Assembly (NCBI GenBank): GCA_046598345.1
Contig: JBKJIT010000004.1
Location: forward strand, 69,702 to 133,701
From: Minisyncoccia bacterium
GTDB taxonomy: Bacteria; Patescibacteriota; Minisyncoccia; Phycocordibacterales; UBA918
Direction of reading: 5' to 3'
Length of the DNA: 64,000 nt
The translations under genes were made by a program, and so were the position numbers. Below, piece by piece: positions 12,522 to 27,710 of the stretch; positions within the stretch are counted from its first letter, which is position 1, and every line of letters begins with the position of its first letter. The notes below the pieces were generated by a model that saw nothing but the letters and a program-made list of their open reading frames with translations, was not told the origin of the DNA and did not search any database.

Positions 12522-14411
12522 CTAGATAATCCGGTCAGGATTGATAACAATCCGAATAGAAGGCGGCAACTCACGAAGCGTCGCAGCAAGTTGTTGGTCA
12601 GGCCACTTATTTGGCGGCAATCGAATGAGTCCAAACTGCATCACTGCACCTTTTGGTGGAAAGGAAGAATTATAAATTGAAATACCATACGGGGCGAGAA
12701 CGGTCTTGATTAGATTTTCCATTTTTTCTACAACATCTTTTTGTCCTTGCCAGGTAAGGTGAACGAAAGTTGCGAAAGGGGGGTACGAGAATGTCTTCCG
12801 AAGCTCGAGTTCTTCGTTATAAAATTGCTCAATCGAACCGCGCGCTGCGAGATCAATGAGTGAGCGTTCTTTTGTTCGCGCCTGCACGTACACCGTCTGC
12901 TTGGTAAGTTCTCGAAGCTTGAGGAGAAGGGCAAAATTCTCTTCTTGAAGTCGCCACGTTGGTGTCGCATTAAGAGAGTCCATATTGACGACGATCGATA
13001 CATCGATCGGCTCATGAATGTACGGCAGCGCCATCGTCGTTCCAATCATGATTGATCCCTTGGTGTTGTAAAACGTATGCGCAAGAAACATTGCTTTCTT
13101 GTGTGTGCTTGCAGTCGTGTGATCGAACAGCGTGATTGCAGTTTTGGGAAGCAGTTTTCCGAGTTCATCATGCACATACTGAATTCCTATGCCGCGTTCA
13201 CGTAGTCGCCACGACCCACACTCATCACAGGTATCCTGCGCCCGCTTCCTTTCGCCGGAGGAAGGGCAGACGAACCAGCGTTCCTCAACTCCATTTTTGT
13301 TTGTTCGTATGAGGGAATACGGCGCGCCACTCTCTTCAGACCTGAAGATATACCCACAGTCGAGACAGGCAACGACGGGCGAGAGACCGCGCCTCGCAGC
13401 AAACAAGAAGACGTGCCCCCTTTTCTTTAAGACTTCTTTAATAGCTTCGATAACCTTGGGAGAAAAGAGTTTAAACGGAGTCGTACCATCTAATTTTTCC
13501 TGCATCAGCACGAGTTCAAGTTTCGCTTTGGTCTCAATGCGTTTTGGATTTTCACCGTAGGTTTGGTACTCATCCGTGCGCCGCATGTATTCTTCTTCGC
13601 TTCGAGGTACGATGTCGGCCATAATGATTCTTCTTCCCGCGTGCTTTGCGTGTACACGATGGACTTCTCGATAATCAAGGTAGGGACGTACCAACTCTTT
13701 GTAATAGGGTGACCGAGCACACTCCATAATAACGAGTGTGATGTCATGGCGTTCGAGAAGGGAATGGGAAGGTGTAGCGATTATAAGTTTTGGTTTACTA
13801 AAGTCATCGAGCGCTTCGTATGCAGCGCGCATATGTGGTTTCCCCATTGTGCTCGTGAGGAGAATCGTGCGGTCGACAATACCCGGGGAAAGATATTTGA
13901 AGAGTTCGTTCGCTTCGCCCGAAGTTGGCACCACACAGACCACCGAACCGCTATGCGCAAATGTCTCGCGGACGAGAGAGCGGTAGGAAAGGTAGCGCTC
14001 TCTCGAATGTGCGGTGAGAACTTCAGGAGTGAATGTCTCAGTTGGTATGACGTGATGGGTATGAGGTAGGGGAATTTCTCCGTTTCGAATATCAGGCGGC
14101 AAAAGGTTATAGAGAATCGCTCCCACGCTCGACGCGTAATAGAGCGACAGTTCTTCAGCTGTTTGTATGTACGCAGGAGAAAGACTTTGCACATTTTCTT
14201 GCGGAGGTAGTTTCTTAAGAGAAAACGTGGCAGCGCGGAGTGCTGTTTTTGCACCGCTCACTTCCTCGGTTCGAGTTACCACCCCCAGAAAAGATTGATT
14301 TCGTACGGGAATCGTAAGAACCGTGCCACATTCATACTTCGTTGCGGAGTAGTAGGAAAGCGTATCAATCTGTACACCGCGTTTAAGTGGAATGACGTCG
14401 ATTACGAACAT
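12522..14411 (-). CDS. priA: Primosomal protein N' (PriA helicase)
   Basis: 629 aa; helicase motifs; Cys-rich zinc region (CLDCG...CPSSGE...CDECG); priA-def-fmt order is conserved in bacteria. Confidence 0.8.
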   Translation of the reverse strand: MFVIDVIPLKRGVQIDTLSYYSATKYECGTVLTIPVRNQSFLGVVTRTEEVSGAKTALRAATFSLKKLPPQENVQSLSPAYIQTAEELSLYYASSVGAILYNLLPPDIRNGEIPLPHTHHVIPTETFTPEVLTAHSRERYLSYRSLVRETFAHSGSVVCVVPTSGEANELFKYLSPGIVDRTILLTSTMGKPHMRAAYEALDDFSKPKLIIATPSHSLLERHDITLVIMECARSPYYKELVRPYLDYREVHRVHAKHAGRRIIMADIVPRSEEEYMRRTDEYQTYGENPKRIETKAKLELVLMQEKLDGTTPFKLFSPKVIEAIKEVLKKRGHVFLFAARRGLSPVVACLDCGYIFRSEESGAPYSLIRTNKNGVEERWFVCPSSGERKRAQDTCDECGSWRLRERGIGIQYVHDELGKLLPKTAITLFDHTTASTHKKAMFLAHTFYNTKGSIMIGTTMALPYIHEPIDVSIVVNMDSLNATPTWRLQEENFALLLKLRELTKQTVYVQARTKERSLIDLAARGSIEQFYNEELELRKTFSYPPFATFVHLTWQGQKDVVEKMENLIKTVLAPYGISIYNSSFPPKGAVMQFGLIRLPPNKWPDQQLAATLRELPPSIRIVINPDRII

Positions 14412-14505: not shown

Positions 14506-14883
14506 TCACGTTTTGACGACCTTGGGCTCCAGGATTAACTCGTACTCGGTGTTTCCAACGCACACAACGAATTTGAGTTTACCTCCCATGCCCTCGATGA
14601 GCGACTTAAGTCTTTCTGTGTCGCAGCTCCCACGCTGCTCAACTCGCCAAACGTTTGAACGGTGAACCCCGGATGCACGGCTGAGATCTGGGCGTCCTAG
14701 CCCTAACCTTTCGCGCAGTTCTTCCAAACGTAGCCGGATTCGGTTTTCCGGACGTTCGTCAGAGAGGAGCCTCACCGAGGATTCATGAGCTTTACCTGCG
14801 GGCCGCCAATATAAATCTGAAAGATCACGCATAAGTGCCACATCTGCGGCTGCTTCGTTCTCAGTCATTGCCGTTCCTTTCAC
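14506..14883 (-). CDS. XRE-family helix-turn-helix DNA-binding protein
   Basis: 'LRLEELRERLGLGRPDLSRASGVHRSNVWRVEQ' HTH_XRE; locally GC-rich. Confidence 0.5.
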   Translation of the reverse strand: MKGTAMTENEAAADVALMRDLSDLYWRPAGKAHESSVRLLSDERPENRIRLRLEELRERLGLGRPDLSRASGVHRSNVWRVEQRGSCDTERLKSLIEGMGGKLKFVVCVGNTEYELILEPKVVKT

Positions 14884-14931: not shown

Positions 14932-16434
14932 CTAGAATTCATCATGGTAGGCAATATGTGCCCCGAGCGCGGATAAGCGTTCCACTAAGTTTTCATACCC
15001 ACGATTGATGCTGTAAATGTTGCGTAGGATTGATGTGCCTTTTGCTCCAAGCATGCCAATAAGAAGAATCGTAGCTGGGCGAAGTGCGGGCGGACAAATA
15101 AGCTCTGCTCCACGAAGTGGAGTCTTTCCAGTTACGTAGATTCGATGAGGATCTGCAAGGACGGTTTCAGCACCGAGCTTATCAAGCTCAGTAAAGTAGA
15201 GCGCTCGTTTTTCATACATCCAGTCATGAATAAGCGTTTGGCCCACTGCCTGTGTAGCAATAACAGCAAAGAAGGGAAGATTGTCTGCATTCAGTCCCGG
15301 ATACGGGCGAGCATGTACTTTGTCCGCTGGTGCCATGAGTACTGAAGGATGCGTCGTGATATCGACGAGTCGCGTGAGACCATTTAGAGCGAGGTATGGT
15401 TTGCTCAGTGTATATTTGAATCCCATTTTTTCCAGCACCAGGAGTTCGATTTCAAGAAAATCAATCGGTGAGCGTTTGATTGTGATTTTTGAATTGGTGA
15501 GAATCGCGGCACTGAGAAAAAACATTGTGTCTGTCGGATCTTCTGAAAGGGTGTATTCGATATCCGTATCAATTTTCGCGATGCCGGTTACCGTGAGAGT
15601 AGTTGTGCCCACACCTTCAATCTGTACACCAAGCGCATTTAGAAATGCGCACATTTCTTGCACCATGTAGTTTGCGGACGCGTACTTAATCGTTGTGACG
15701 CAAGGGGCAAGAGCGGCAGCGAGAAGTGCATTTTCAGTAACGGTATCGCCGGATTCATACAGAATAATCTCCTCCGGGCATTTCCCAGCAACTTTGATAT
15801 GGAACGCGTCCTCGGTTGTATCAATATGTACCCCAAAGTGTTCGAGTGCATAAAAGTGGGGGCGTACGGTACGGCTTCCAAGCTTGCATCCACCTGATTG
15901 GGGCAGGCTGAACTCATTCATATAGTGAATGAGCGGTCCAATGAACATTACGATGCTCCGCGTGCGACTTGCAGCCGCTTTGTCGATCTTCTTTAGGTTA
16001 AACCTCTTTGGTGGTGTAATTATGATGTCACTATCACTCCATTCGACGCGTACACCAATTGATTCCAGTACTTCAATGAGTCGATGCACCTCCTCAATGC
16101 GTGGCATCTTTCTAAGCGTAGTTGTGCCACGGTTGAGGAGGGAGGCGCAGAGAAGACCGACAGCCCCATTCTTTGAGGTGCTCGTCGTAACAGTTCCTTT
16201 TAGTTTTTTACCTCCCGTAATTTTAAGATTCACCGTGCCGGGGGACAGTGTCAACAGATTTTTCTTAAGAGCAGCACTTACCTTCTTCAGCATTTCTGCA
16301 CTCACGTTCTGTTTACCTGTTTCAATACGTGCAATCGCGCTTTGCGTCGTCCCGAGCTTTCGAGCGAGATCAGTTTGCGTCATTCCTTGGGTTTCTCGTA
16401 GGTCGGCAATCCGAATTCCAATGTCTTTTTCCAT
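14932..16434 (-). CDS. murA: Fusion: N-terminal HTH_XRE domain + UDP-N-acetylglucosamine 1-carboxyvinyltransferase (MurA)
   Basis: N-terminus 'IRIADLRETQGMTQTDLARKLGTTQSAIARIETGKQNVS' (HTH_XRE); MurA body with 'LKITGGKKLKGTV' and active-site loop 'GGCKLGSRTVRPH' (catalytic Cys retained). Confidence 0.7.
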   Translation of the reverse strand: MEKDIGIRIADLRETQGMTQTDLARKLGTTQSAIARIETGKQNVSAEMLKKVSAALKKNLLTLSPGTVNLKITGGKKLKGTVTTSTSKNGAVGLLCASLLNRGTTTLRKMPRIEEVHRLIEVLESIGVRVEWSDSDIIITPPKRFNLKKIDKAAASRTRSIVMFIGPLIHYMNEFSLPQSGGCKLGSRTVRPHFYALEHFGVHIDTTEDAFHIKVAGKCPEEIILYESGDTVTENALLAAALAPCVTTIKYASANYMVQEMCAFLNALGVQIEGVGTTTLTVTGIAKIDTDIEYTLSEDPTDTMFFLSAAILTNSKITIKRSPIDFLEIELLVLEKMGFKYTLSKPYLALNGLTRLVDITTHPSVLMAPADKVHARPYPGLNADNLPFFAVIATQAVGQTLIHDWMYEKRALYFTELDKLGAETVLADPHRIYVTGKTPLRGAELICPPALRPATILLIGMLGAKGTSILRNIYSINRGYENLVERLSALGAHIAYHDEF

Positions 16435-16442
16435 GGGATCAA

Positions 16443-16460
16443 TATAGCATATATGCTATA
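16443..16460. promoter_or_regulatory. 18-bp perfect palindrome TATAGCATATATGCTATA between divergent HTH-murA and mreB
   Basis: Seen directly; lies 9 bp upstream of the HTH-MurA start codon; candidate operator for the fused HTH domain. Confidence 0.4.
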
Positions 16461-16471
16461 CATCGAACCAC

Positions 16472-17551
16472 GTGGTGTTGATAGATGAGTCACGGGCTAG
16501 TAAATTGTCAAAAAACAGATACCATATGAAGCATTGTATGTTCCAACGTCTCATTCCTAAAGTTGGTATCGATTTAGGTACCACGAATATTCTCGTCTAC
16601 ATACCAGGTAAGGGCATCGTCCTTAATGAGCCTTCAGTCGTTGCAGTTTCTGACTCAAACCAAATTCTTGCGGTGGGTGCTGAGGCAAAGCGTATGATCG
16701 GGCGTACACCGGACACCATCCGTGCGTATCGTCCAATGAAAGACGGTGTGATCGCCGATTACCGTGTAACGGAGGCAATGCTTCGCTATTTTCTTAAAAA
16801 AAGTTTAGGGAGCTACAATTTCTTTAAACCTGAAGTGATGGTGTCCGTGCCCGCGGGAGTGACTTCAACTGAAAAACGCGCGGTAGTGGAGGCTGCGATT
16901 AAAGCTGGCGCACGAAATGCCTACGTCGTGAAGGAGCCGATTCTTGCAGCAATAGGCGCTAACCTTCCTATATATGAAGCGCAGGGACACATGATCGTGG
17001 ACATTGGTGGAGGAACGATTGACGTCGCGGTCATCTCCTTAGGAGGTATTGTTGTCTCAAACTCAGTGAAGTGCGCGGGGAATCGCATTGATGCTGCAAT
17101 TACGGACTATGTAAAGAAAATTCACAATCTCTCTATCGGTGAAAAGACGGCTGAAGATATTAAAATTCAAATAGGGTCAGCACTTCCACTTGAGGAGGAG
17201 TTGCCTATGGAAATAAAAGGGCGCGATCTTTTTTCTGGGCTGCCGCGCACTGTCGAGATAAAGACAAACGAAGTGGTGCGGGCGATCTCTCGTGAGCTCC
17301 ATGAAATGATCAAAGCAATTAAAGACGTCTTTCAAAACACACCACCCGAGCTTGCGTCAGATATTATTGATTGCGGCATTATTATGACCGGGGGCACATC
17401 TCAACTTCGCAATTTTCCTGAACTGGTCAAACGTCGCACGGGAGTGAAGGCAACCTTGGCTGACCAGGCGCTCTTTTGCGTCGTGAAGGGGACTGGTATT
17501 GCACTAGAACATTTAAACGCCTACAAAAAAACCATTATCGCCAAGCGTTAA
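16472..17551 (+). CDS. mreB: Rod shape-determining protein MreB (actin-like), paralogue 1
   Basis: 'VGIDLGTTN...', 'VDIGGGTIDVAVISLGG', 'IIMTGGTSQLRNFPELV'; true start probably Met at 16526 or 16538. Confidence 0.8.
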   Translation: MVLIDESRASKLSKNRYHMKHCMFQRLIPKVGIDLGTTNILVYIPGKGIVLNEPSVVAVSDSNQILAVGAEAKRMIGRTPDTIRAYRPMKDGVIADYRVTEAMLRYFLKKSLGSYNFFKPEVMVSVPAGVTSTEKRAVVEAAIKAGARNAYVVKEPILAAIGANLPIYEAQGHMIVDIGGGTIDVAVISLGGIVVSNSVKCAGNRIDAAITDYVKKIHNLSIGEKTAEDIKIQIGSALPLEEELPMEIKGRDLFSGLPRTVEIKTNEVVRAISRELHEMIKAIKDVFQNTPPELASDIIDCGIIMTGGTSQLRNFPELVKRRTGVKATLADQALFCVVKGTGIALEHLNAYKKTIIAKR

Positions 17552-17801: not shown

Positions 17802-20534
17802 ATGGAATTAGCTGGTGTAAAAAAGTTCTCATCACCTGAGGAAGAAATTTCGTATCTACGTGCTCAGATAGCTGAGCGCGAACAAGAGCTGCTCTCACGC
17901 AATAAAGAGATTGATCACGTTGATCATGAGACTATTGGTAAGGAGGTAATGCGTGAATATGGCGAGCATGATCCGTCAGTCATCTTGCACGATACTCACA
18001 CCCTCAAAGGACAGGAGTTTGCGGAATCGCTCCACATTTCAGAGGTTGCTGGAGACCCGATTGCAGAAGTCGTAAAGATTGCATATGAGAAAGGCGTGAG
18101 AAATGCGATGTCGGTCCTCGAGCGTTTAGGAGATGCGTTTCTTACTGACGAGGTACACAAGCGACTTATTGCGGATATTCGAACAGGGAAGGAGGTTGCG
18201 GATTTGAAGGAAGGTGCTCCCATGTGGAAGCTACTCCACATGACACTTTTTGAAGTTGCCCTTCCCGAGCATGCAGATGAGGGAGCTGAGACAAATTTAA
18301 AGACACTACTTTCTGCCATGGAGCAGTTTTATTCGGGCATGCAGACACTTGGGAGTGGAAAATCCCCAAAGCATTACACGCTCGAAGTTGCGGTAGCAGA
18401 TAACAGCGACGACATTGTGTTTTACGTGGGCGTGCCCAACGAGTTTGTGAATCTGTTTGAAAAGCAGGCGCTCTCACTGTTTCCCACAGCACAGCTCATT
18501 CTTCAGCAGAATGACTACAACATTTTTGTTGAAGGTGGAACGCATGAAGTATCTATAGGAATGCAACGAAAGCATTCTATATATCCACTGAGGCTTTACG
18601 AGCAGTTTGAAAACGATCCCCTCAATGTGATCCTAAACGCGTTCTCGAAGATTGAACGCGTGGGCGGAGGCGCAGCAATGCAACTTCTCATTGAGGGTGG
18701 GGCAAGCAAATATCGTGAGTCGTACACAGGTATTCAAAAGCGAGTAGAGAAAGGGGAGAAGATTGAGATCGCCATTCGAAAGGATTCTTTTGCGGGGAGT
18801 ATGTACGAAAATCTAAAGGATGTGTTTGTGCCGGGGAAAGAAAAAAAGGATGGTGAACCAGAAAAGCCAAAGGAAATAAAGACGGACCTGCTCGAAGAAT
18901 TTAAAAAGAAGATGAATGCGCCGACGCTTGCAACAAACATTCGACTCATTGCCTCAGCGCATACGAAGGAGCGGGCTGACCAGATACTTACTGAACTCGA
19001 ATCGGGTTTTCATCAATTTGAAAACACTTCCGGAAATAAGTTTTCGTGGAAGCGAGCACAGGGAAGTACTAAAGCACGGGTGCTAAAGGCATTCTCATTT
19101 CGAGAGTTTGAACCCTCGCAGATCATGCCGCTCTCTATTGCGGAAATTGCAACGATTCTCCATTTCCCAGCAGAAGGAGTTGAGTCATCACCGCAATTTA
19201 AGCAATCGAAAGCAAAGAAAGCACCAGCACCCGTTGATATGCCACAGCACGGCACCCTCCTTGGGGTGAATGAATTCCGAAATAAGGAGACACAGATATA
19301 CCTCACGCCCGAGGATAGGCTTCGACATTTCTATGTTATTGGACAGACAGGAACTGGAAAGACCACGATCCTTAAAAATATGATCGTGCAGGATATTCTT
19401 GATGGCGGAGGCGTCTGCATGATCGATCCGCATGGCACGGACATTCTCGATGTGCTGTCTGCAATCCCCGAAGCTCGCCTCGATGATGTTATCTACTTTG
19501 ATCCCTCCAATATGGAACGTGTCATGGGGCTTAATATGCTTGAGTTTGATCCAAAATTCCCAGAACAGAAAACCTTTGTGGTGAACGAACTCTTTTCAAT
19601 TTTTCAGAAACTCTACGGTGCGAATCCTGAGTCGATGGGACCGATGTTTGAGCAATATTTCAGAAACGCGACGCTTCTAGTACTTGAGGATCCTGATTCA
19701 GGCAGTACACTTCTCGACATATCTCGCGTTATGGCTGATGCTGACTATCGCAACATGAAGCTCGCGAAGGCGACGAATCCAGTTGTTGTGCAATTCTGGA
19801 AGACGATTGCAACCAAGGCCGGCGGCGAGGCATCGCTTGAGAATATTGTTCCGTATATCGTATCTAAATTTGATGTGTTCACGGCAAACGACTATATGCG
19901 TCCCATAATCGGCCAACAGAAATCATCTTTCAACTTCCGGGACATCATGGATTCACAGAAGATACTGCTCGTTAACCTCTCGAAAGGCCGACTTGGGGAA
20001 ATAAATGCCAACCTCATTGGCATGATCATTGTCGGTAAGATTCTCATGGCAGCTCTCTCGCGTGTGGATGATACTACGAAAGGATATCCACCTTTCTATC
20101 TCTATATAGATGAGTTCCAGAACGTAACAACGAATTCAATTGCATCTATCTTGTCGGAAGCAAGAAAATATAAATTGGGGCTTACTGTCGCGCATCAATT
20201 TATTGCTCAAATTGATGAGAAAATTAAGGATGCAGTGTTTGGTAATGTTGGATCTATGGCAGCCTTCCGCGTGGGTGTAGATGATGCAGAGTATCTCACT
20301 TCACAATTTGCACCGGTGTTTGAACAAACTGACCTAATGAATGTTGAAAATTTCAACGCGTACGTGCGGCTACTTTCAAATGGTTCTCCCACAAAACCAT
20401 TTAGCTTGCGCACGATGTCACCGCACACCACTGATCCTGCGTACGCCGAGAAGGTAATAGAGTACTCACACTTTAAGTACGGAACATCGAGGGAGGAGGT
20501 TGATAGGGCAATACGAGCCAGGTACATGATGTGA
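17802..20534 (+). CDS. Large ATPase with C-terminal VirD4/TraD-like (T4SS-DNA-transfer / DUF87-type) P-loop domain
   Basis: 910 aa; Walker A 'HFYVIGQTGTGKTT', Walker B 'FYLYIDEFQNV'; ~460-aa N-terminal region of unknown function. Confidence 0.5.
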   Translation: MELAGVKKFSSPEEEISYLRAQIAEREQELLSRNKEIDHVDHETIGKEVMREYGEHDPSVILHDTHTLKGQEFAESLHISEVAGDPIAEVVKIAYEKGVRNAMSVLERLGDAFLTDEVHKRLIADIRTGKEVADLKEGAPMWKLLHMTLFEVALPEHADEGAETNLKTLLSAMEQFYSGMQTLGSGKSPKHYTLEVAVADNSDDIVFYVGVPNEFVNLFEKQALSLFPTAQLILQQNDYNIFVEGGTHEVSIGMQRKHSIYPLRLYEQFENDPLNVILNAFSKIERVGGGAAMQLLIEGGASKYRESYTGIQKRVEKGEKIEIAIRKDSFAGSMYENLKDVFVPGKEKKDGEPEKPKEIKTDLLEEFKKKMNAPTLATNIRLIASAHTKERADQILTELESGFHQFENTSGNKFSWKRAQGSTKARVLKAFSFREFEPSQIMPLSIAEIATILHFPAEGVESSPQFKQSKAKKAPAPVDMPQHGTLLGVNEFRNKETQIYLTPEDRLRHFYVIGQTGTGKTTILKNMIVQDILDGGGVCMIDPHGTDILDVLSAIPEARLDDVIYFDPSNMERVMGLNMLEFDPKFPEQKTFVVNELFSIFQKLYGANPESMGPMFEQYFRNATLLVLEDPDSGSTLLDISRVMADADYRNMKLAKATNPVVVQFWKTIATKAGGEASLENIVPYIVSKFDVFTANDYMRPIIGQQKSSFNFRDIMDSQKILLVNLSKGRLGEINANLIGMIIVGKILMAALSRVDDTTKGYPPFYLYIDEFQNVTTNSIASILSEARKYKLGLTVAHQFIAQIDEKIKDAVFGNVGSMAAFRVGVDDAEYLTSQFAPVFEQTDLMNVENFNAYVRLLSNGSPTKPFSLRTMSPHTTDPAYAEKVIEYSHFKYGTSREEVDRAIRARYMM

Positions 20535-26636: not shown

Positions 26637-27710
26637 GTGATTAAAAAACTTCTTACATTAATTGATAAAGGATTGGAGTCAATCTCAACGGATATTGGTA
26701 TTGACTTAGGGACTGCAAATACGCTTGTCTACGTAAAGGGAAAAGGAATCATTCTTAACGAACCGACGATCGTCGCAATTAACCGGAAAACCGGACAGCT
26801 TGTTGCAGTAGGTGCGGAAGCTAAGTCTATGCTTGGTCGCACGCCTGGGCACATTGAGGTAATTCGACCACTTGTCGGGGGAGTTATTTCAGACTTTGAG
26901 GTGACCGAAGAAATGCTTGCGTACTTGATCGCAAAGGTGCGCACGGGCACACGCTCAATTGTTGCGCCGCGCGTTTTGATTGGAGTGCCGTCAGGGATTA
27001 CCAATGTTGAGATGCGCGCAGCGCGTGATGCGGCGAGGAATGCTGGTGCGCGTGATGTGTTTCTCATTGAAGAGCCTGTTGCTGCTGCCATTGGTGCAAA
27101 GCTTCCAGTTCACAAGCCACAGGGGAGCATGATTATTGATATTGGTGGTGGTACGACTGATATCGCCGTCATTTCCTTAAATGGAATTGTGGTTGCTAAG
27201 AATCTAAAGATTGCCGGCGATCGCCTCAATGAAGACATAGTGTCGTACATCCGTGATCAGTTTAAGGTGCTCGTGGGAGATCGGACTGCGGAGGATGCAA
27301 AGATCGCGCTCGCATCTGTGGAGGATAACGGTGAGTCAAAAGAAATTATTGTGCGTGGACGCGATGTGGTCACGGGGCTTCCACGCGAAGTAGTCATTAC
27401 TGATTCAGATATCAGGGAAGCAATTGCGGGGTCGATAAACTCCATTATTGAAGCAGCGCGAGACGTCATTGAAAAAACACCGCCTGAGGTATTGTCCGAC
27501 GTGATGCAACGGGGCATCTACCTCTCAGGCGGAGGTGCGCTCATTCCTGGAGTAGGGAAGCTTCTCGAAGAAATCCTCAAGCTTCCGGTCGTCATTGTGC
27601 CCGATCCACTTCGTGCGGTCGTACGAGGTACAGGAATTGTCCTCGAAAATTTTGAAGAATATGCAGAACTTCTCATTGAAAATGAAGGGGAACTCACCCC
27701 AGAACTCTAG
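26637..27710 (+). CDS. mreB: Rod shape-determining protein MreB, paralogue 2
   Basis: 'IGIDLGTANTLVY', 'IIDIGGGTTDIAVISL', 'IYLSGGGALIPGVGKLLEE'. Confidence 0.85.
   Translation: MIKKLLTLIDKGLESISTDIGIDLGTANTLVYVKGKGIILNEPTIVAINRKTGQLVAVGAEAKSMLGRTPGHIEVIRPLVGGVISDFEVTEEMLAYLIAKVRTGTRSIVAPRVLIGVPSGITNVEMRAARDAARNAGARDVFLIEEPVAAAIGAKLPVHKPQGSMIIDIGGGTTDIAVISLNGIVVAKNLKIAGDRLNEDIVSYIRDQFKVLVGDRTAEDAKIALASVEDNGESKEIIVRGRDVVTGLPREVVITDSDIREAIAGSINSIIEAARDVIEKTPPEVLSDVMQRGIYLSGGGALIPGVGKLLEEILKLPVVIVPDPLRAVVRGTGIVLENFEEYAELLIENEGELTPEL

What the first reader, a model, noticed from the sequence alone, without database searches (positions are those of the whole stretch)
14932..16471. HTH_XRE-MurA fusion whose start codon is preceded by a perfect 18-bp palindrome, divergent from mreB
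MurA (catalytic Cys loop GGCKLGSRTVRPH intact) carries an N-terminal XRE-type helix-turn-helix. The 37-bp divergent intergenic region shared with mreB paralogue 1 contains TATAGCATATATGCTATA (16443-16460) 9 bp upstream of the fusion's ATG. This suggests the first committed peptidoglycan enzyme autoregulates its own promoter, and possibly mreB, through the fused DNA-binding domain. That would couple wall-precursor synthesis to shape-determining cytoskeleton expression.
Basis: partly seen in the sequence, partly recalled or inferred. Interest (0 to 1): 0.5.

Follow-up and report, generated by a model that had tools for sequence, protein, structure and literature searches.

The report
MurA enzyme fused to its own repressor
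The first enzyme of bacterial cell-wall synthesis (MurA) carries a built-in DNA-binding domain here, and in thousands of relatives from the ultra-small Patescibacteria; comparison of many genomes indicates that this domain binds a palindrome lying on the gene's own promoter, so the enzyme probably limits its own production.

Summary
ORF 14932-16434 (-) is a 500-aa XRE-HTH + full-length MurA fusion, and the perfect palindrome TATAGCATATATGCTATA (16443-16460) is unique in the window.

There are two corrections. Eight nt, not nine, separate the palindrome from the ATG. The intergenic region is about 103 bp, not 37, because orthologues place the mreB start at ATG 16538.

- **Site conservation.** All 72 fused orthologue loci with readable upstream DNA carry one ATAGC-N6-GCTAT site. 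It sits where its proximal arm forms an extended -10 (TGCTATAnT), mostly 6-11 nt before the ATG, which implies a leaderless mRNA.
- **HTH loss.** Seven orthologues without the HTH, at least three of them nested among fused ones, keep a -10 but lack the palindrome. Five of them still face mreB.
- **Variant site.** Fusions whose recognition helix reads TSQS instead of TTQS carry ATATC-N6-GATAT, usually without mreB nearby.
- **Other contexts.** The exact 18-mer also precedes related small XRE genes and Gp49-toxin/XRE pairs.
- **Pseudo-enzymes.** Divergent relatives have lost the catalytic loop. One sits beside a genuine murA-murB operon.

Best reading: a self-repressing trigger enzyme. Coupling to mreB is not supported. 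No paper describing it was found. Nothing here is experimental.

The parts
14932..16434 (-). HTH-MurA fusion gene (500 aa plus stop)
   Evidence: Single ORF. Pfam HTH_3 plus EPSP_synthase. NCBIfam MurA subfamily above its cut-off. More than 100 homologues at 75-83% identity share the architecture.
16255..16422 (-). XRE/Cro-C1-type helix-turn-helix domain (residues 5-60); recognition helix TTQSAIARIE
   Evidence: HTH_3 E 3.1e-15. PDB relatives include 434 repressor, SinR, HigA and HipB. AF2 predicts helices at 5-15, 20-27, 31-39 and 46-56. The helix is nearly invariant across orthologues.
16219..16254 (-). Linker (residues 61-72, KNLLTLSPGTVN); residue 68 aligns with Met1 of HTH-less orthologues
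   Evidence: Alignments. AF2 pLDDT is below 50 at residues 62-66. Codon 68 is not conserved as a start codon.
14947..16218 (-). MurA (UDP-GlcNAc 1-carboxyvinyltransferase) domain, residues 73-496; Cys183 codon at 15886-15888
   Evidence: Full-length alignment to solved MurA structures, E 5e-50. K88, R159, C183, R188, D384, R452 and R478 are invariant in 81 sequences.
16443..16460 (.). Inferred operator: perfect 18-bp palindrome, conserved core ATAGC-N6-GCTAT (16444-16459)
   Evidence: Unique in the window. One such site lies upstream of every fused orthologue and none elsewhere in those loci. Arms are conserved while the flanks are not.
16441..16449 (-). Inferred extended -10 promoter element TGCTATATT (hexamer TATATT at 16446-16441), 6 nt before the ATG, implying a leaderless mRNA
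   Evidence: TG is present in 71 of 72 loci. The hexamer fits TATAnT in 58 of 72. The distance from -10 to ATG is 6-11 nt in 52 of 72. The proximal side is more conserved than its mirror image. HTH-less orthologues keep TGnTAnnnT (TATACT without TG in L074) 6-9 nt before the ATG. No transcription start site has been mapped.
16538..17551 (+). Divergent mreB (probable start ATG 16538; the longest ORF starts at GTG 16472)
   Evidence: PF06723 E 4e-131. Start supported by 58 of 70 orthologues. Divergent mreB is found in nearly all Paceibacteria-type loci.
16478..16506 (+). Candidate mreB promoter TTGATA-17-TAAATT, separate from the palindrome
   Evidence: Consensus scan. This is weak evidence: 1 site found against 0.7 expected in shuffles.

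Best explanation
The gene encodes a bifunctional 'trigger enzyme': an active MurA with an N-terminal XRE-type HTH joined by a short flexible linker. Two HTH domains, presumably from a dimer, bind the half-sites ATAGC and GCTAT of the palindrome. The promoter-proximal half-site is also the extended -10 element (TGCTATATT) of a promoter that starts transcription at or within a few nt of the ATG. A bound protein would therefore block RNA polymerase, and MurA concentration would repress murA transcription, which is simple negative autoregulation. Shown here: the domain architecture, the intact catalytic motifs, and the conservation, position and co-evolution of the site. Inferred: DNA binding by this HTH, dimerisation, the transcription start site and the direction of regulation. 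Speculative: that MurA ligands (UDP-GlcNAc, PEP, UDP-MurNAc) modulate DNA binding.
For: (1) HTH_3 plus full-length MurA lie in one ORF. Catalytic-site motifs are invariant in 81 orthologues. The gene occupies the same mreB-murA-priA position as HTH-less murA orthologues, and there is no second murA in the window.
(2) One ATAGC-N6-GCTAT site lies upstream of fused murA in 72 of 72 loci at 67-82% protein identity. There is no other copy in about 560 kb of those loci. Flanking positions carry about 0-0.3 bits of information.
(3) The proximal arm forms TG(C)TATAnT, 6-11 nt before the ATG in 52 of 72 loci. Where the site lies 19-251 nt upstream it keeps the -10 shape, so it follows the promoter rather than the start codon. 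Proximal positions are more conserved than their mirror images: T+2 in 65 of 66 against A-3 in 48 of 66, and T+10 in 60 of 66 against A-11 in 18 of 66.
(4) Seven HTH-less orthologues, at least three of them nested among fused ones in an NJ tree, keep a -10 but have no palindrome. L071 retains TGCTATACT without the distal arm.
(5) TSQS-helix fusions have ATATC-N6-GATAT in 11 of 13 loci, and the other two have a degenerate proximal arm. None of the 72 XRE ORFs beside the exact ATAGC 18-mer has TSQS.
(6) The exact 18-mer sits within 400 nt upstream of a related XRE gene at 72 of 122 metagenomic sites, including 19 Gp49-toxin/XRE pairs.
(7) Pseudo-enzyme relatives keep the HTH and the operator. 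L204 sits beside a genuine murA-murB operon and upstream of ddl and a mur ligase.
Against: There are no experimental data of any kind: no binding assay, no TSS map and no enzyme assay. Characterised MurA enzymes are generally monomeric (from my own knowledge), so the basis for dimeric binding is unknown. AF2 gives a low-confidence linker and no docking of the two domains. No -35 element is recognisable in the window. The same 18-mer is used by other XRE proteins, so another XRE in the genome could bind it instead. The ATAGC to ATATC and TTQS to TSQS covariation may reflect a single evolutionary event. Two of seven Saccharimonadales loci have a degenerate proximal arm, and L206 has no such site. 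The E. coli Asp369 equivalent is Ala in the whole clade. Only 64 kb of this genome could be searched for further sites.
Confidence: 0.7

Rival explanations
1. One reading: the fused HTH also controls the divergent mreB from the same site, coupling wall-precursor synthesis to the shape-determining cytoskeleton.
For: Divergent mreB-murA is conserved in nearly all Paceibacteria-type loci. The palindrome centre (about 16451.5) lies roughly 60 nt upstream of the TSS implied by the candidate mreB promoter at 16478-16506. From my own knowledge, some activators act from that position. In the pseudo-enzyme locus L204 both arms do form extended -10 elements for divergent operons.
Against: Five HTH-less orthologues keep divergent mreB with no palindrome. 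ATATC-type fusions keep a palindrome with glyA or other neighbours instead of mreB. The distal arm lacks a conserved -10 facing mreB: the mirror of T+10 is present in only 18 of 66. The site lies outside the candidate mreB core promoter.
Confidence: 0.15
2. The palindrome is only a symmetrical or bidirectional promoter element, or is bound by a different XRE protein such as a toxin-antitoxin antitoxin. The fused HTH has another role or none.
For: The proximal arm is clearly promoter-like. The exact 18-mer is also found at Gp49-toxin/XRE and small XRE loci.
Against: The distal arm ATAGC is invariant, yet falls in the spacer of the murA promoter and gives no conserved reverse -10. The palindrome disappears exactly where the fused HTH is lost, while the -10 stays. 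The site variant tracks the fused HTH's recognition helix. HTH conservation (78% mean column identity) is close to that of the enzyme (83%). No paralogous HTH of this subfamily occurs in the window.
Confidence: 0.1
3. In this window the MurA-like domain is a ligand sensor only (a pseudo-enzyme), and the protein is a dedicated regulator, as in the divergent relatives.
For: Relatives P0271, P0280, P0293, P0300, P0301, P0332 and P0383 have lost the Cys loop and other catalytic residues. In L204 such a protein sits beside a genuine murA. The window protein is below the TIGR01072 equivalog cut-off (296 against 392.7). Its Asp369 equivalent is Ala.
Against: K88, R159, C183, R188, D384, R452 and R478 are invariant. 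It scores above the NF006873 cut-off. It is 71-78% identical to HTH-less orthologues at the same syntenic position, and those carry the same Ala. No second murA occurs in the window.
Confidence: 0.05

Closest known systems
Trigger enzymes with a fused DNA-binding domain: NadR (XRE-type HTH plus NMN adenylyltransferase/ribosylnicotinamide kinase), BirA, PutA and archaeal RbkR
   Same: A DNA-binding domain is fused to an enzyme and regulates genes of that enzyme's own pathway. PMC5397151 groups BirA, NadR and PutA under the term 'trigger enzymes' and describes RbkR, including probable autoregulation and secondary loss of the DNA-binding domain in some lineages. NadR's DNA-binding domain is also an N-terminal Cro/C1 (XRE) HTH (from my own knowledge).
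   Different: The enzyme here is MurA, the committed step of peptidoglycan synthesis, for which no fused regulator turned up in the literature searches. The only target seen so far is its own leaderless promoter. Ligand control of DNA binding is unknown. The lineage is Patescibacteria.
Small XRE-family autorepressors and type II antitoxins of the HigA kind paired with Gp49-like (PF05973) RelE/HigB-type toxins
   Same: The HTH subfamily is the same (up to 59% identity, recognition helix T[TK]QS..[AS]R.E). The same 18-bp palindrome lies a few nt upstream of the first gene's ATG. From my own knowledge, such antitoxins typically repress their own promoter through palindromic operators.
   Different: No toxin gene lies next to the window gene. 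The HTH is covalently joined to a housekeeping enzyme rather than forming a roughly 60-100-aa protein.
434 repressor/Cro-type operator recognition
   Same: The HTH resembles 434 repressor in sequence (1per/1r69, E about 1e-4). The operator has two short inverted half-sites about one helical turn apart and overlaps a promoter.
   Different: The half-site sequence differs (ATAGC, against ACAA for 434 from my own knowledge). There is one operator rather than an array, and dimerisation would have to come from another part of the protein.
Canonical MurA (E. coli, Enterobacter cloacae and others; PDB 1UAE, 1EJC, 5U4H)
   Same: The two-lobed EPSP-synthase-fold sequence is full length, and the Cys loop and the Lys, Arg and Asp catalytic residues are conserved.
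   Different: It has an N-terminal 72-residue HTH plus linker. Ala replaces the residue aligned with E. coli Asp369 in the whole clade. Known MurA control is post-translational (UDP-MurNAc feedback; ClpCP/ReoM proteolysis in Firmicutes; from my own knowledge), not through a fused transcription-factor domain.

Membership tests
MurA (UDP-N-acetylglucosamine 1-carboxyvinyltransferase) | Full-length EPSP_synthase-fold domain scoring as MurA rather than AroA | tested here: met
   PF00275 covers model positions 2-417 of 417, E 1.1e-41. NF006873 MurA subfamily scores 311.7 bits against a cut-off of 297, while aroA scores only 80.6. The best PDB hits are all MurA, E 5e-50.
MurA (UDP-N-acetylglucosamine 1-carboxyvinyltransferase) | Score above the strict equivalog model TIGR01072 | tested here: not met
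   296.4 bits against a cut-off of 392.7. This is a divergent clade; the genuine HTH-less MurA in L204 also scores below it (312.2).
MurA (UDP-N-acetylglucosamine 1-carboxyvinyltransferase) | Catalytic Cys loop and the residues aligned with E. coli K22, R91, R120, D305, R371 and R397 | tested here: met
   K88, R159, C183, R188, D384, R452 and R478 are invariant in 81 sequences. They align with solved MurA sequences. The E. coli residue numbering is from my own knowledge.
MurA (UDP-N-acetylglucosamine 1-carboxyvinyltransferase) | Asp at the position of E. coli Asp369 | tested here: not met
   Ala450 in all 81 sequences, including the HTH-less orthologues. This is a clade feature unrelated to the fusion.
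MurA (UDP-N-acetylglucosamine 1-carboxyvinyltransferase) | Enolpyruvyl transfer activity | not testable with these tools
   Requires an enzyme assay or genetic complementation.
XRE / Cro-C1 helix-turn-helix (PF01381) | HMM match above the gathering threshold | tested here: met
HTH_3 scores 56.4 bits against 23, and HTH_31 and HTH_19 are also above their cut-offs.
XRE / Cro-C1 helix-turn-helix (PF01381) | Compact all-helical domain | tested here: met
   AF2 predicts helices at 5-15, 20-27, 31-39 and 46-56, with block pLDDT of 64-87.
XRE / Cro-C1 helix-turn-helix (PF01381) | Sequence-specific binding to an inverted-repeat operator | not testable with these tools
   Only comparative support is available: site conservation, co-loss with the HTH, covariation with the recognition helix, and the same site at related XRE genes.
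Trigger enzyme (enzyme with a fused DNA-binding domain regulating its own pathway) | One polypeptide with both a DNA-binding domain and a catalytically competent enzyme domain | tested here: met
   (at the sequence level only).
Trigger enzyme (enzyme with a fused DNA-binding domain regulating its own pathway) | Operator at genes of the same pathway | tested here: met
   The site lies on murA's own inferred promoter in 72 of 72 loci. In L204 it lies between murA-murB and ddl/mur ligase. No further sites were found in the window.
Trigger enzyme (enzyme with a fused DNA-binding domain regulating its own pathway) | DNA binding modulated by the enzyme's substrate or product | not testable with these tools
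   Requires EMSA with and without UDP-GlcNAc, PEP, UDP-MurNAc and fosfomycin.
Type II toxin-antitoxin antitoxin (HigA-like, Gp49-associated) | Adjacent cognate toxin gene | tested here: not met
   The neighbours are mreB and a 125-aa ORF with no Pfam match above threshold. The HTH and operator are related to those of antitoxins, but the gene is not a toxin-antitoxin module.

The most novel reading that the evidence does not exclude
HTH-MurA defines a previously undescribed family of MurA-derived transcription factors in Patescibacteria, in which the MurA fold acts as the ligand-sensing module. In the bifunctional members, such as this window, occupancy of the active site by UDP-GlcNAc, PEP or the feedback ligand UDP-MurNAc would tune binding to the ATAGC-N6-GCTAT operator. 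That would give direct metabolite-level feedback on the committed step of wall synthesis. In derived members the enzyme has decayed into a pure sensor that controls divergent peptidoglycan operons (murA-murB and ddl-mur ligase in L204). The HTH-plus-operator cassette would have been captured from a toxin-antitoxin-type XRE autorepressor.
Probability: 0.3. Interest if true: 0.8.

Novelty: new variant of a known kind. Interest (0 to 1): 0.6.

Why it matters
In model bacteria MurA, the target of fosfomycin and the committed step of peptidoglycan synthesis, is known to be controlled mainly after translation. A MurA that carries its own repressor domain, and is the standard form in large Patescibacteria lineages (Paceibacteria and Saccharimonadia), would be a new and very economical way to keep wall-precursor synthesis steady in organisms with tiny genomes and few regulators. 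It offers a clean system of one protein and one operator that could be tested with purified components. It gives a natural series running from bifunctional enzyme to pseudo-enzyme regulator. It is also a documented case of a promoter-operator-HTH cassette, shared with toxin-antitoxin antitoxins, being attached to a housekeeping enzyme. Public records annotate these proteins simply as MurA.

Tried and rejected
1. **Internal translation start at residue 68**, the position of Met1 in HTH-less orthologues, which could give an HTH-less isoform. Rejected: the codon is ATG in 22, GTG in 10 and TTG in 3 of 73 loci and is not start-capable in the rest, and valine codons show no GTG preference.

2. **RNA-level explanations for the intergenic region.** There is no Rfam match. 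The RNA fold of 16435-16537 is no more stable than shuffles, z = 0.08. The arms are conserved in sequence, not merely in complementarity.

3. **Regulon search.** No second ATAGC-N6-GCTAT occurs in the window with up to 1 mismatch, and none occurs elsewhere in 80 loci of about 7.5 kb each. Larger ORFs beside exact 18-mers in metagenomes were a mixed set with no further cell-wall enzymes. A whole-genome scan was not possible.

4. **Second murA in the window.** None found.

5. **Source contig and organism of the window.** The protein is not on record in the look-up of encoding contigs.

6. **Literature.** Four searches found no description of an HTH-MurA fusion. The library does not cover most subscription journals.

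7. **Bidirectional -10 in the distal arm facing mreB.** Not conserved.

8. **AF2 monomer model.** It gave no information on HTH-MurA docking or dimerisation because the linker has low confidence. No fold search was run, since the sequence evidence for both domains was already strong.

9. **The consensus promoter scan** did not report the murA promoter, because no -35 element is present. The -10 assignment rests on comparative data only.
Full report
**Observation.** The region was read directly. ORF 14932..16434 on the minus strand is one uninterrupted 500-aa frame.
- Pfam finds HTH_3 at residues 9-60 (E 3.1e-15) and EPSP_synthase over residues 73-487 and the whole model (E 1.1e-41).
- NCBIfam places the second domain in the MurA subfamily NF006873 (311.7 bits, cut-off 297). 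AroA is far behind. The strict equivalog model TIGR01072 is not reached (296 against 392.7).
- The protein aligns end to end with solved MurA structures (E 5e-50), including the GGC...GSR loop.
- TATAGCATATATGCTATA lies at 16443-16460. It is the only match in the window with up to three mismatches, and no match occurred in 100 shuffles. The relaxed core with one mismatch is also unique.

Two details in the finding are wrong. Eight nt, not nine, separate the palindrome from the ATG. The '37 bp' intergenic region depends on the longest-ORF GTG at 16472. In 58 of 70 orthologues the codon aligned with window ATG 16538 is ATG, often with a stop just upstream, so the intergenic region is about 103 bp.

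**Distribution of the fusion.** All 120 best database homologues (75-83% identity) carry HTH plus EPSP_synthase. Where they are named, they come from Patescibacteria, Paceibacterota or Kaiserbacteria. A scan of species-representative genomes returned 80 loci. A second search with a 55%-identical fused protein (L079) again gave 120 of 120 fused hits. These came largely from Saccharimonadales, including contigs of 1.0-1.1 Mb. In the 50%-identity representative library, a query of residues 1-130 gave 294 hits at E<=1e-10. About 70 of the best 150 representatives span both the HTH and the MurA N-terminus, with identities down to 36%. The fusion is therefore a standard form of MurA in large parts of the Patescibacteria, not a local accident. 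Four literature searches found no description of it.

**The palindrome is a conserved, positioned site.**
- In every fused locus with readable upstream DNA (72 of 72), exactly one ATAGC-N6-GCTAT, or ATATC-N6-GATAT in the most distant group, lies upstream of the fusion gene. No other ATAGC-type copy exists in about 560 kb of these loci.
- The arms are invariant, the central six positions vary, and the flanks carry almost no information.
- The three bases after the proximal arm complete a -10 hexamer: TATACT in 24 loci, TATATT in 20, TATAGT in 7 and TATAAT in 7. TG precedes it in 71 of 72.
- The hexamer ends 6-11 nt before the ATG in 52 of 72 loci. In the window the arrangement is TGCTATATT, then GATCCC, then ATG.
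- The proximal half is more conserved than its mirror image: T+2 in 65 of 66 against A-3 in 48 of 66, and T+10 in 60 of 66 against A-11 in 18 of 66. This is what one expects if a promoter constraint is added to a symmetric protein-binding site.
- Where the site lies further upstream (19-251 nt; for example L001 and L002 at -116, L002 with a GGAGG before the ATG) it keeps the -10 shape. It therefore belongs to the promoter, not to the start codon.

I infer a promoter driven by an extended -10 that yields a leaderless or nearly leaderless mRNA. No transcription start site has been mapped.

**The site follows the HTH, not mreB.**
- Seven orthologues (L067, L069, L071-L075) lack the HTH. tblastn finds no HTH remnant, and their MurA starts at the residue aligned with window residue 68.
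- By identity (71-78% to the window's MurA domain for five of them; 64-65% for L074 and L075) and in an NJ tree, L067, L069 and L071 are nested among fused sequences. L072-L075 branch between the two fused groups. Secondary loss, at least three times, is the simplest reading, although the tree was not tested for support.
- All seven keep a TGnTAnnnT -10 (TATACT without TG in L074) 6-9 nt before the ATG, and none has the palindrome. L071 still has TGCTATACT but no distal arm. Five of them still have divergent mreB.
- Conversely, fusions of the distant group and of Saccharimonadales have a palindrome but face glyA or other genes rather than mreB.

**Covariation.** Fusions whose recognition helix reads TTQSA[IV]AR[ILM]E have ATAGC arms. 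Fusions with TSQSA[VI][AN]R[MIV]E have ATATC arms: 11 of 13 loci are perfect, and two Saccharimonadales loci have a degenerate proximal arm. This may be a single evolutionary event, so it is supportive rather than decisive.

- Eight sites are HTH-MurA genes.
- 19 sites precede a Gp49-like (PF05973) toxin gene followed by an XRE gene.
- About 45 sites precede small XRE genes of 60-100 aa.
- In total, 72 of 122 sites have a related XRE ORF within 400 nt reading away from the site.
- 28 sites had too little flanking sequence to judge.

The XRE proteins are 40-59% identical to the MurA HTH. Their recognition helices read TKQS or TTQS and never TSQS. The pairing of this HTH subfamily with this palindrome thus recurs in different gene contexts, which is hard to explain unless the HTH binds it. 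It also suggests that the HTH-operator-promoter cassette was captured from an autoregulated XRE or antitoxin gene.

**The enzyme domain.** K88, R159, C183, R188, D384, R452 and R478 are invariant in 81 sequences. They align with E. coli K22, R91, C115, R120, D305, R371 and R397; this numbering is from my own knowledge. The residue aligned with Asp369 is Ala in all 81, HTH-less orthologues included. The gene occupies the same mreB-murA-priA slot as the HTH-less murA genes, and the window holds no second murA. I therefore take it to be the working MurA. AF2 (mean pLDDT 84) gives a four-helix HTH, a low-confidence linker at residues 62-66 and a normal MurA body with a flexible Cys loop.

**Pseudo-enzyme relatives.** Several divergent full-length representatives (P0271, P0280, P0293, P0300, P0301, P0332, P0383) keep the HTH but have lost the Cys loop and other catalytic residues.
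- **L204/L205.** The order is murB, then a genuine 438-aa murA (NF006873 325 bits) on one strand, a 60-bp spacer containing ATATCATATATGATAT, then HTH-pseudo-MurA (234.6 bits, below the cut-off), ddl and a mur ligase on the other strand. Both arms of the site read as TGATAT-type extended -10 elements in opposite directions.
- **L207.** It has ATATCAGATATGATATAAT just before its gene.
- **L206.** It follows alanine racemase and has no such site.

These proteins can hardly be anything but regulators, which strengthens the case that the HTH is functional across the family.

**mreB.** The window has a separate candidate promoter for mreB, TTGATA-17-TAAATT at 16478-16506. This is weak evidence, because the scan found 1 site against 0.7 expected by chance. 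The palindrome centre would lie about 60 nt upstream of the corresponding start, outside the core promoter. Together with the dissociations above and the lack of a conserved reverse -10 in the distal arm, there is no positive evidence for co-regulation. An upstream effect cannot be excluded.

**Comparison with known systems.** Functionally this matches the trigger-enzyme class: BirA, NadR, PutA and archaeal RbkR. PMC5397151 groups the first three under that term and describes RbkR, with likely autoregulation and lineage-specific loss of the DNA-binding domain. NadR, with its N-terminal XRE-type HTH (from my own knowledge), is the nearest architectural analogue. By descent the HTH belongs with small XRE autorepressors and HigA-like antitoxins. 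What is new is the enzyme (MurA), the lineage, the leaderless self-operator, and the series leading to pseudo-enzyme regulators.

**Verdict.** Autoregulation is the best-supported mechanism (confidence about 0.7), resting entirely on comparative inference. The mreB coupling is unsupported. The finding is a new variant of a known kind, with moderate to high interest (0.6).

Noticed in passing
L204:624-5503 (also L205): A divergent HTH-MurA-like protein has lost the catalytic Cys loop and the K22 and R397 equivalents. It sits 60 bp from a genuine murA-murB operon and upstream of ddl and a mur ligase. ATATCATATATGATAT lies in the spacer, and both of its arms read as extended -10 elements in opposite directions. 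Six other pseudo-enzyme representatives exist: P0271, P0280, P0293, P0301, P0332 and P0383.
   Followed up: partly
L081-L200 (for example L127:3049-3678, L121:84-680, L144, L134): The exact 18-mer TATAGCATATATGCTATA lies 7-20 nt upstream of Gp49-like (PF05973) toxin genes followed by XRE antitoxin genes. It also lies upstream of many 60-100-aa XRE genes. It appears to be the operator of a whole XRE subfamily.
   Followed up: partly
window 14506-14883 (-): A 125-aa ORF between murA and priA has only a sub-threshold HTH_31 match (24.7 bits against 27). It has no tblastn counterpart in any of the 80 related loci, where the murA-priA spacing varies widely. It is probably a lineage-specific insertion, or not a gene.
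   Followed up: partly
window 26694-27677 (+): A second mreB paralogue, 44% identical to the one at 16538-17551.
   Followed up: no
window 17802-20534 (+): A 910-aa protein with weak DUF87/HerA, T4SS-DNA_transf and TraG-D_C matches, suggesting a VirD4/TraG-like coupling ATPase immediately downstream of mreB.
   Followed up: no
window 12522-14411 (-): A 629-aa protein with only a sub-threshold PriA 3'-DNA-binding-domain match. It is conserved downstream of murA in nearly all Paceibacteria-type loci at 43-72% identity.
   Followed up: no
L016:2958-2997; L062: In L016 the operator is embedded in a perfect 40-bp palindrome (ATGACAGACACTATAGCATATATGCTATAGTGTCTGTCAT) that runs right up to the murA ATG. 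L062 has a 32-bp version with one mismatch.
   Followed up: no
window residue A450 (codon 15085-15087) and all 81 orthologues: The residue aligned with E. coli MurA Asp369 is Ala throughout the clade, whether the protein is fused or not. From my own knowledge, substitutions at this position are linked to fosfomycin resistance in E. coli.
   Followed up: no
P0246, P0291, P0352, P0376, P0385: Very long proteins (1002-2332 aa) contain 6-11 tandem XRE-HTH repeats related to this HTH.
   Followed up: no
L160:498-548; L158:959-2030: Two metagenomic contigs carry two exact copies of the 18-mer, 33 nt apart in L160 and about 1 kb apart in L158.
   Followed up: no
L201-L203, L208-L210: In Saccharimonadales, HTH-murA faces glyA (SHMT) instead of mreB, with murB just beyond glyA in L201 and L202. 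Two of seven loci have a degenerate proximal operator arm (TGGTAA or TGGTAT).
   Followed up: partly
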